A stretch of DNA of 64,000 bases from Brachybacterium sillae (lineage in GTDB: Bacteria > Actinomycetota > Actinomycetes > Actinomycetales > Dermabacteraceae). Made by a program: the position numbers. How positions within the stretch are numbered: the stretch's first letter is position 1; every line of letters starts with the position of its first letter. The stretch lies in NCBI RefSeq assembly GCF_025028335.1, contig NZ_JAFEUW010000001.1, forward strand, positions 310,001 through 374,000, given 5' to 3'. Positions 52,501 to 55,500 of the stretch are shown here, piece by piece.

Positions 52501-55500
52501 CCCGAGCAGCACCGCCGCGACACCACCGAGGGTGGCGGGCAGCACCAGCGGTGCAACCAGAAGGTTCACCAGCACTGACCAGGCGGACATCTCCGGCGCC
52601 AGCAGCACCAGGACGGGGGTGCAGACCATCTGCGCCACCAGCGGCACCGCCACCGTGGCCGCGACCGAGCCGGGCAGGTGACTGCCGGTGAGATCACGCA
52701 GAAGACGTGCGGCCGGAGGCACGAGAAGCAGGATCGACGCCGTGGCGAGGGCGGACAGCACGAAACCGATGCCGGCGGCGGTGCCCGGATCGTGCAGGGC
52801 CCAGATCAGCACGGTCAGGGCGAGGCAGGCGGTGGCGTGGGCGCGGTGGCCGAGCGCCCGGGCCAGCAGGAGCGGTGCGGCCATGGTGGCGGCCCGTAGC
52901 ACGCTCGGTTCCGGCCCGACGAGCACCACGTATCCGGTGACGGCGAGGGCACCGACCGCCAGTCGCGTCCGCCGCGGCACTCCGAGCAGAAGGAGCGGGC
53001 CCACGACGGCTCCGAGGATCAGGGCGATGTTCGCTCCGGAGACGGCCACGAGGTGGGAGATCCCGGAGCGGCGCATCGCCTCCTCGGTGTCCTGGCTCAG
53101 GCCGCGGGTGTCGCCGATGCTCATGCCTCTCACCAGGGCGGCGACGTCCGGCGGGAGATGCGCGGTGCTGCGCAGGGCATGGGCGCGCAGCACCGCACGG
53201 GGACCCGTCTCCCGCTGCACCGTCCGGGCCGAGCTGATCCGCAGTTCGCGGTAGGTGCCGTCGATGCGCAGGCTGCCGCGCACCTCGAGCACGTCCCCGG
53301 CGCGGGCTGCACCCAGGGGCATCCCGTCCGTGTCCCGCAGGATCACCCGGGTGCCCCGCGGCAGCATGACCTCGCGGGAGCCGATCCGCACGGGACCGCC
53401 TTCCAGCCGGGCGGTGGCGAGACGCCCTGCGGGGGCGGCCGCATCCTCCGTGGCCCATGCCGGGGGTGTGGCCGTTCGTGGTTCGCCCAGCAGTCGCACC
53501 TGCCCGGTGAGGATCGCCCCACGAGCGCCGGCGCCCTCGAGGGTCACGCGGGTCGCCGTCGTCGTCTGCACGGACGGCAGCAGCGGCACCGTGAGCACGA
53601 GCAGCAGGGCACCGTGGCGCAGGAGGGCCCGTCGCAGGCCACGATCGGGCACCAGCAGGCCGATGATCCCGGCGGTGGCGAGGACCGCCGCGATCACCGC
53701 TGCGGCACCCCGCACCCCGGTGTGGGATCCGGTGATGGCCGCCGCCCACACCACGCCCGCCGCGGGCAGCAGTCGCAGCTCCGGACCCCGTCGACGGGTG
53801 TCCCTCCCCGCGGTGGTGGCCGGGCCGGTCACACCGTGACCCGGTCCCGCAGGTCGGCGAGGATCGCCGGCCCGATGCCGGAGACCTCATCGAGCTGGTC
53901 CACGGAGGTGAAGGGCCCGTTGGTGGTGCGGTGGTCGATGATGCGCTGCGCCAGGGCGGGGCCGATGCCCGGCAGTTCCTCCAACGCGGCGGCATCGGCC
54001 GTGTTGACGTTCACCCGTGACGATCCCGAGCCGTCCACCTCCCCGCCGCCGGTGCCCGACTCCGGTGACGTGCCGACATCGTGGCCGGTCCCCGCGCCCG
54101 GTGCGGAGCTCGGCCCGGCGGGCCCGGAGGCCGTGAGGGGAGGCTCCTCCCCCGGCCGCGGCACGTGCACCTGCTCCCCGTCGACGACCGGCCGGGCCAG
54201 GTTCACCTGCTGCAGGTCCGCCTCCGTCGTGGTGCCCCCGGCGGCGTCGACCGCGTCAGCGACCCGCGCCCCGGGACTGAGACGGACGATGCCCGGGGTG
54301 GCTACGGCCCCGGTGACGTGCACGATCAGCGGACCCGGCGCCGGTTCCGTCGCACCGGGGTCGGCGGGGACGGGCACGGGGGGTGCCGGCGGTGCGGACG
54401 CTCCCGGTGGCGATGTTCCCGCGGGCGCCGCCTCCGAGGAGGACGGCGTCACCGCCCCGCCGGCGATCTCCTCAGCGCGGGCGCTCTCCGTGGCCGCGGC
54501 CGATGGCGGCTGGTCCAGACCGAGGTCGGCCGGCGGCAGGGCGGTCCCGGCGGTCGCCAGGTGCACGGCACCGCCCGCGACGACCAGCAGCACGGCCACG
54601 CCGCCGATGCTCCCGGCGCTGGGGCGGGGGATGTCCTGCCACCACGGTCTGCGCACGGTCTCCCGGTGATCGCGCACCTCCACCAGGGGTTCCGCCTCCG
54701 GGGCGGGTGCCGTGTCCACGGCGGCGCGGTGGCGTGGCCCGACGCGACGGCCGGGGGGAACGGGGCTGAGTCGACTCATGCCCCGGACGCTAGGCGCCTC
54801 CCGCACCACGCGCGCGGCCCCGTCGTCGCGCTGGGGATACCCGGCCCCTGGGGAGGAAACGCAGCGGGAGTCGGGCTCGGATCAGTGGATCAGAGCATTC
54901 CCCACCAGGCGAGGAAACGTCGGCCGAAGATCACGGCGATCACCAGGATCACCAGCAGGTACCACAGCAGGGTGCACACCACCCAGTGCCGCAGCACGCG
55001 GGCCACCGGGGCGGGTAGGCGCAGCTGCCCGTCCTCGATCGCGTGGGCGAGATTCACGAAGAACATCGGGGCGGTGGCGGTCCACACCACCATGCACCAG
55101 AGGCAGAGCTTGCCCAGGATGAAGATCGCGTTGATCGCGAGCCAGTGCACGAAGGCGAAGGCGAACGTGGTGCCCCCCAGGGACGCCCAGCGGAACCAGC
55201 GCGGCAACACCGCCCGGGACAGCAGCAGCGAGCCCACCGCACCCATGATCGCGAAACCGCCGAGGCCCACCGCCATGTTCGGGATGTAGAAGGTGTTCGC
55301 CTGCCAGGACTGCATCACGCCGCCGCAGGAGACGAACGGGCTGATGTCGCAACTGAGTTTCGCCCCGGGGTTCGCCGCCAGGAACAGCCGCTCCATGAAC
55401 AGGATGACGGAGGCGATCCAGCCGACCAGCGACCCGATCACCAGCACCGCTCCGGTCAGCCGGTCGGGGGCGCGGCGGCGGGCGCGACGCTCCGCGGCGA

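What a model noticed while it worked through the whole genome (the two positions that open the first line are those of the whole stretch)
54831..54860. Direct-repeat promoter motif TTCCTCCCCA-N8-TYRTCCMC marks a predicted natural-competence regulon
A direct repeat of TCC(A/C)CA with a 17-bp period lies about 40-250 bp upstream of, and in the same orientation as, the DNA-uptake and recombination genes: comEA-comEC (364860), ssd-tadA pilus operon (1992048), comF-like g561 (642762), yraN-comM-dprA (2184698), recA (2234323), second ssb (569433), cpaB/SAF (2526509), xseA (837099), HEPN gene before dinB (2255644) and clgR (2233202). It also precedes DUF222-HNH genes, DUF559 nucleases and two Esx effector operons. 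It predicts a shared regulator site, i.e. a competence regulon, in Dermabacteraceae.
Evidence so far: All 18 exact TTCCTCCCCA copies fall outside coding cores in a genome 90% coding; it ranks second in an unbiased upstream-word scan of 1336 regions. A matrix from 16 sites gives 20 hits above 21 bits, 19 intergenic plus clgR, then a drop to 16; yraN-dprA, recA and clgR were not in the training set. In G061 (other genus) the 17-bp pair stands before comEA, comF, recA and ssb, single boxes before yraN, xseA, a tad ATPase and M23; spacing 11 is the peak there (12 against 0-6; call 194). A strict pattern gives 6, 13 and 10 hits in three Brachybacterium genomes, control 0; of 13 G039 sites, those with a match precede ssb, dnaX, HEPN, DUF222, a helicase and a methylase. 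9 of 60 metagenome hits had [...]
(Added by a program. Inside this text positions count along the whole contig: contig position 310,001 is position 1 of the stretch shown here. "Call 12" and the like, gene names such as g00115 and contig names such as C1 are that model's own, and its searches are not shown. The text may have been shortened before it was handed on; [...] marks where a part breaks off. The agent that wrote the report below was given it as the finding of a first reader that could run no searches.)

Follow-up and report, generated by a model that had tools for sequence, protein, structure and literature searches.

The report
DnaA-box switch of actinobacterial competence genes
The repeat is a family-specific form of a short DNA signal that sits at one fixed distance in front of DNA-uptake and recombination genes across Actinomycetes; it is predicted to switch these genes on together, and its likely reader is the replication initiator DnaA, which would give a first handle on how these bacteria control DNA uptake.

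Summary
The motif is real but is not family-specific. It is two 9-bp DnaA-type boxes. The promoter-near box ends 39 nt before the -10 element of a predicted leaderless comEA promoter. That distance holds at 17 of 23 paired sites in this genome and in 79 of 96 comEA promoters across the class; yraN-dprA, ssd-tad and recA promoters share it. Controls: 0 of 23 and 3 of 367. Single perfect boxes at the same distance add the second tad operon and the prepilin peptidase. Only the far box (TCCTCCMCA) is a family speciality. The gap between the two boxes differs between lineages (14-41 bp) but is the same at unrelated promoters of one genome, which points to one reader acting in trans. DnaA is the best candidate: the box vocabulary matches oriC, it has no paralogue, and published data show a weak in-vitro peak at mycobacterial comEA. 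Against it: oriC has not drifted in this family, and other target promoters lack peaks. An HTH_17 protein and Rv2175c were not found in many box-bearing genomes. The clgR site is not conserved. This scan reported the class-wide regulon before on other DNA. No paper in ten searches describes it.

The parts
54849..54857 (-). Far (distal) box TCCTCCCCA, the family-drifted DnaA-type 9-mer, with flanks TT and GG
   Evidence: TCCTCCMCA stands in 24 of 24 same-genus comEA promoters with a called start.
54832..54840 (-). Near (proximal) box GTATCCCCA, the class-wide core, ending 39 nt before the -10
   Evidence: a box at 38-40 nt in 79 of 96 comEA promoters.
54787..54792 (-). Predicted -10 hexamer TAGCGT (context CCTAGCGT). 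No conserved -35.
   Evidence: Sequence; information profile over 29 lineages. The start site is not measured.
53829..54779 (-). comEA (316 aa, SLBB + HhH), predicted leaderless: ATG 7 nt after the -10
51451..53832 (-). comEC (793 aa, Competence + Lactamase_B), overlapping the comEA stop
54890..55666 (-). Upstream gene (VKOR-like, label recalled). Its stop lies about 30 nt before the far box; not part of the regulon.

Best explanation
The element is a pair of DnaA-type boxes at a fixed distance upstream of a -10 element; it is predicted to be an activator site that switches on DNA-uptake, pilus and recombination genes together, and its reader is likely DnaA, probably with a helper. Shown: the boxes, their orientation, their distance to the -10, the lack of a -35, the target genes, and the class-wide spread. 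Inferred: a protein on the near box (about -52 to -60 from the predicted start) recruits the housekeeping polymerase to promoters without a -35. Inferred: a second molecule on the far box helps where the near box is imperfect. At recA and the DUF222 genes the same -10 also carries a PafBC-type box, so these genes would have a second, DNA-damage input. The HTH_17 gene opposite the second tad operon is itself a predicted target and would act as feedback.
For: Phasing: 17 of 23 paired sites have an xAnnnT hexamer 37-40 nt after the near box (background 0.10, p about 6e-13), and 3 more at 27-30. Class: comEA 79 of 96, none in reverse at 38-40; yraN 22 of 30; ssd 22 of 30 with a looser box rule; recA 14 of 19. 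Controls: 0 of 23 other leaderless promoters in the same loci; 3 of 367 in this genome, all three regulon genes. Gene-blind scan: 80 of 80 listed records are Actinomycetota; 54 precede comEA and 10 precede SAF genes. Reader in trans: the box gap agrees within 1 bp in 14 of 15 genomes for comEA vs yraN and 16 of 18 for comEA vs ssd, with 0 of 100,000 permutations as good. For DnaA: perfect TTGTCCACA boxes fill the same slot, and TTGTCCACA is the tabulated high-affinity box of Streptomyces and mycobacteria (PMC4285127). The promoter variants also occur in oriC spacers and in non-origin box clusters. Only one domain IV exists in the genome. Outside the family the share of C at box position 7 in oriC tracks that in promoters (rho 0.47, p 0.016, 26 families); GC content shows no significant link to either. 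Purified mycobacterial DnaA enriches a site 92 nt upstream of comEA (PMC7738170 Table S8).
Against: That in-vitro peak is weak: 3.6-7.2-fold at 300 nM, about 41st of 51 places by my count. Many peaks of that rank look like AT-rich background (my reading). Rv3660c, Rv2898c and Rv3242c are not in the table, although the printed Rv3660c promoter carries the box pair in phase. The five annotated M. smegmatis DnaA ChIP peaks are not comEA; nine minor ones are unannotated. comEA is not among the genes changed in all three dnaA point mutants. Inside this family promoter boxes have C7 in 25 of 32 but oriC boxes in 26 of 120. The invariant C2-C3 of the far box is not typical of oriC boxes. DnaA domain II length does not explain the gap (family-level rho 0.25, p 0.28). 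The sign (activation) and the start sites are unmeasured, and competence of this strain is untested. Genomes are kin, so p-values overstate.
Confidence: 0.6

Rival explanations
1. The same regulon, but read by a dedicated, unidentified activator with DnaA-like specificity (a dimer or two-domain protein whose geometry differs between lineages).
For: Lineage-fixed gap, including inverted pairs in family f44. The far box has specialised in this family while oriC has not. DnaA peaks are weak or absent at the promoters.
Against: No domain IV paralogue. Two candidates were not found in many box-bearing genomes. No listed ChIP row of PMC4301838 is centred within 300 nt of the comEA promoter peak. It needs convergence on the whole DnaA-box vocabulary.
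Confidence: 0.27
2. DnaA binds these boxes as a repressor, or as a coupling that keeps uptake genes off while initiator is plentiful.
For: DnaA both activates and represses promoters elsewhere (PMC8203912, passages). The boxes cover the upstream-element zone.
Against: The boxes do not overlap the core promoter. Strict 39 (29, 50) nt phasing and the lack of a -35 fit polymerase contact better than blocking.
Confidence: 0.07
3. A known regulator reads the site directly: the HTH_17 protein (Mlut_14660 type), PafBC, ClgR, Rv2175c or a LuxR-type protein such as Rv0339c.
For: One Mlut_14660 missense change raises comEA promoter activity in M. luteus (PMC8467076 section 4.3, part 1). PafBC-type boxes share the -10 at recA. 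Rv0339c has a ChIP peak at the Rv3660c promoter.
Against: No close HTH_17 orthologue was found with this query in 15 genomes that show boxes at comEA. Rv2175c_C was not found in 6 of 30 box-bearing genomes. comEA promoters show no conserved PafBC-type patch. The Rv3660c peak is shared by four regulators, and comEA is not among the first 30 of 52 Rv0339c entries seen.
Confidence: 0.04
4. The sites are a dispersed repeat or chance words without regulatory function.
For: A few copies are out of phase or lack a partner.
Against: DNA between box and -10 is not conserved, while distance, strand and target class are, in nearly all families sampled. Controls are near zero.
Confidence: 0.02

Closest known systems
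DnaA-regulated promoters (E. coli nrdAB, B. subtilis sda, Caulobacter gcrA/ftsZ/mipZ; review PMC8203912, passages read)
   Same: 9-bp DnaA-type boxes upstream of promoters; DnaA can activate by stabilising polymerase.
   Different: Here one fixed distance recurs over a whole class and marks DNA-uptake genes. The word 'competence' does not occur in that review. Binding is untested here.
Competence regulons: ComK boxes, sigmaX cin-box, CRP with Sxy/TfoX (PMC8467076 introduction, passages read; CRP-S detail recalled)
   Same: One upstream signal unites comEA/EC, pilus, comF, dprA, comM, ssb and recA. As with CRP and Sxy, a general DNA-binding protein may be redirected by a helper.
   Different: Different sequence and reader. 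The M. luteus papers state that ComK and ComX are lacking and that the regulator is unidentified (PMC12849477, passages).
DnaA box noted in the Streptomyces coelicolor ssbB promoter (PMC3616714, passages)
   Same: A DnaA box in the promoter of a second ssb gene.
   Different: A single, untested remark; no regulon was proposed in the passages seen.
PafBC / RecA-NDp promoter motif of actinobacteria (motif recalled)
   Same: Shares the -10 at recA and DUF222 genes; a two-WYL gene is present.
   Different: It lies between the near box and the -10 and is not conserved at comEA promoters.

Membership tests
DnaA box | 9-mer matching the actinobacterial consensus TTGTCCACA or its origin variants | tested here: met
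   The near-box profile matches oriC boxes, and single perfect boxes fill the slot. Columns 4-9 were used to select boxes, so part of the match is built in.
DnaA box | The far box fits the same genome group's oriC repertoire | tested here: inconclusive
   TCCTCCACA occurs in 2 of 12 same-genus oriC spacers, but invariant C2-C3 and frequent C7 are atypical.
DnaA box | Bound by DnaA domain IV | not testable with these tools
   Only a weak published peak at mycobacterial comEA, and none at three other targets.
DnaA-activated promoter | Transcription depends on DnaA and on the box | not testable with these tools
   No expression data; published mild dnaA alleles are uninformative.
Competence regulon | Shared site before uptake, pilus and processing genes | tested here: met
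Competence regulon | Co-induction during competence; strain is transformable | not testable with these tools
   Both tad loci and the peptidase are needed for transformation in M. luteus (PMC4322843, passages). The M. luteus promoters themselves were not examined.
Class I-type activator site | Fixed, helically phased distance upstream of a promoter without a -35 | tested here: met
   Distances 38-40, with 29-30 and 50 as variants; no -35 signal.
HTH_17 (Mlut_14660-type) operator | Reader present wherever the site is | tested here: not met
   Not found with this query in many box-bearing genomes.
PafBC promoter | TGTCGG-N10-TA-N3-T (recalled) | tested here: not met
   Absent at comEA; present in addition at recA in 11 of 19 genomes.

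The most novel reading that the evidence does not exclude
DnaA, steered by a lineage-variable helper, is the master activator of competence in Actinomycetes. It would tie DNA uptake, both Tad pili, recombination genes and some type VII secretion genes to replication state, with the HTH_17 protein as a feedback loop. In this family a changed DnaA recognition segment (SLPK to PLIR/PLMA) goes with a specialised second box, a counterpart of CRP-S sites.
Probability: 0.35. Interest if true: 0.9.

Novelty: new variant of a known kind. Interest (0 to 1): 0.76.

Why it matters
A 2026 paper on the only actinobacterial competence model says the regulator remains unidentified (PMC12849477). A box at a fixed position turns this into a direct experiment: mutate it, shift it, pull down its reader. 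It also predicts regulon members (SAF genes, M23, DUF4192, DUF222, xseA, the HTH_17 gene, some WXG100 genes). It suggests that a controlled uptake programme is kept across the class, including lineages not known to be transformable.

Tried and rejected
DnaA domain II length as the ruler of the box gap: no consistent relation (genome-level rho -0.43, driven by this family; family-level 0.25). Domain IV paralogue: none. clgR as a member: not conserved. HTH_17, Rv2175c and Rv0339c as reader: rejected. Complex prediction of DnaA domains I and III-IV with the HTH_17 protein: no verdict. RNA runs: no RNA holder listed. I could not find a readable source for which base the lost proline of domain IV contacts, so that link stays a correlation. 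Rows dropped: 21 of 117 comEA loci had no leaderless TAnnnT start and were not scored; recA lay outside the locus in 11 of 30 and clgR in 19 of 30. The gap pairs were read by eye, only for genomes with two forward boxes at both promoters. Literature: ten searches found no description of this regulon. Subscription papers and bioRxiv supplements are not covered, and the per-mutant RNA-seq tables S3-S5 of PMC7738170 were not searched.

Full report
Observation. The window holds one box pair on the - strand: TCCTCCCCA at 54849-54857 and GTATCCCCA at 54832-54840. Then follow 39 nt, a TAGCGT hexamer, 7 nt and the ATG of comEA, which overlaps comEC. The genome has 18 exact TTCCTCCCCA copies, all intergenic by my gene calls. 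A matrix seeded on 17 of them gives 23 hits above 21 bits and then drops to 16.

Anatomy. The matrix held no promoter information, yet 17 of 23 sites have an xAnnnT hexamer 37-40 nt after the near box (background 0.10) and 3 more at 27-30, one turn closer. Single perfect boxes fill the same slot: 6 of 16 intergenic TT[AGC]TCCACA have TAnnnT at 37-39. They precede the second tad operon, its tadA, and three copies of a repeated locus. The prepilin peptidase has a perfect box 39 nt before TGGGAT. Only 3 of 367 leaderless TAnnnT promoters in my gene set have a box at 37-40, and all three are regulon genes. That set misses some members because of start-calling errors.

Spread. Of 117 comEA loci, 96 have a leaderless TAnnnT start; 79 of these carry a forward box at 38-40, 6 at 50 and 3 at 29-30, with no reverse box at 38-40. 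Outside the family 57 of 60 have it. Nothing is conserved at the -35 position. yraN promoters: 22 of 30. ssd: 22 of 30 under a looser rule. recA: 14 of 19, often sharing the -10 with a PafBC-type motif (motif recalled). Other leaderless promoters in these loci: 0 of 23. A gene-blind pattern in species-representative genomes gave an estimated 1,700 stretches; all 80 listed are Actinomycetota. Downstream genes of those 80: 54 comEA, 10 SAF, 2 similar to this genome's large ATPase beside WXG100-like genes, 1 WXG100, 1 DUF222, 1 methyltransferase, 1 transporter, 10 unassigned. The pattern came from comEA promoters, so the comEA share is partly built in.

What is special here. In this genus the far box is TCCTCCMCA in 24 of 24 comEA promoters, and near boxes in the family mostly carry C at position 7. 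DnaA domain IV of the family has lost a proline kept in the solved E. coli, B. subtilis and mycobacterial domains: SLPK becomes PLIR, PLMA, PLMK or PLTG in all sampled members but G150. oriC boxes of the family have not drifted (26 of 120 vs 25 of 32).

The gap. Box-to-box distance ranges from 14 to 41 bp between lineages but agrees within 1 bp between unrelated promoters of one genome: 14 of 15 (comEA vs yraN) and 16 of 18 (comEA vs ssd). In the gene-blind set it is bimodal, 17-20 (43) and 26-30 (38), one helical turn apart. Family f44 uses an inverted pair at comEA, yraN and ssd. This argues for one reader in trans with a cooperative contact. DnaA domain II length does not explain it. It remains unexplained.

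Reader. For DnaA: the promoter vocabulary is that of actinobacterial oriC spacers and of this genome's non-origin clusters. No paralogue exists. oriC and promoter usage of C7 co-vary outside the family. Table S8 of PMC7738170 (read whole) lists a weak DnaA peak 92 nt upstream of comEA. Against: that peak ranks low, three other targets are absent, the annotated in-vivo peaks of Table S9 are elsewhere, and the shared list of mutant-affected genes lacks comEA. The HTH_17 protein that affects the comEA promoter in M. luteus was not found in many box-bearing genomes. Its own gene has a forward box in 29 of 39 genomes, 16 at 37-41 and 7 more at 27-30, so it is more likely a target and feedback node. 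Rv2175c and Rv0339c fail too.

Mechanism. Most likely DnaA, perhaps with a helper, binds the near box and recruits polymerase to promoters without a -35; the far box adds cooperative binding where the near box is weak. Position, spread and targets are shown; binding, sign and timing are inferred. I put about 0.9 on a real regulon, 0.6 on activation by DnaA and 0.27 on an unknown reader.

Papers seen. PMC8467076: passages and part 1 of section 4.3. PMC7738170: passages and tables S6, S8, S9. PMC4301838: searched rows of its supplements. PMC12849477, PMC4322843, PMC3616714, PMC4285127, PMC8203912, PMC12378983: passages. PMC5835720: searched, no hits.

Novelty. Ten searches found no description of this regulon; the closest remark is one DnaA box in the Streptomyces ssbB promoter. 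Six earlier notes of this scan describe the class-wide regulon on other DNA; I had reached that reading before seeing them. The summaries shown did not mention the lineage-fixed gap, the family drift with the DnaA change, the oriC co-variation, the published DnaA peak or the box before the HTH_17 gene.

Noticed in passing
G000:C1 731953, 732455, 777245, 834237, 1161145, 1528799, 1607552, 1688447, 2617208: A second motif, the palindrome ATGGGGA-N4-TCCCCA(T). Four of these copies stand before WXG100-like genes. Possibly a LuxR-type operator (recalled likeness) of a type VII secretion regulon.
   Followed up: partly
G000:C1 634227-634251 (L207): Back-to-back boxes, each 39 nt from a predicted -10, serve the SAF-cpaE operon and the divergent HTH_17 gene.
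   Followed up: yes
G000:C1 1549018-1549410 and 1638046-1638257: Two non-origin clusters of 9 and 5 DnaA-type boxes, near a rhomboid/ppiA-like pair and between parB and trxB (gene labels recalled).
   Followed up: partly
G000:C1 189767, 343130, 397163: Three copies of a promoter with a perfect box 38 nt before the -10. Two were examined: they precede a lipoprotein-like gene and a PKD-domain gene.
   Followed up: partly
G000:C1 489012 and 1520387: DUF222-HNH promoters carry three signals: the box pair, a PafBC-type motif and a LexA-type palindrome after the -10 (motifs recalled).
   Followed up: no
G000:C1 220701-222833: One 711-aa gene with two WYL domains before tatA/tatC, a likely natural PafB-PafC fusion.
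   Followed up: no
L213 and L214 (G114, G130): In family f43 the 18-bp box pair before yraN is reversed, and comEA uses 50 nt while ssd uses 39-40 nt.
   Followed up: no
G124:C68:4785-4979: A second, weaker DnaA domain IV match in a 226-aa frame.
   Followed up: no
L407: The box-plus-promoter pattern precedes a radA-like gene (zinc ribbon by Pfam, name recalled).
   Followed up: no
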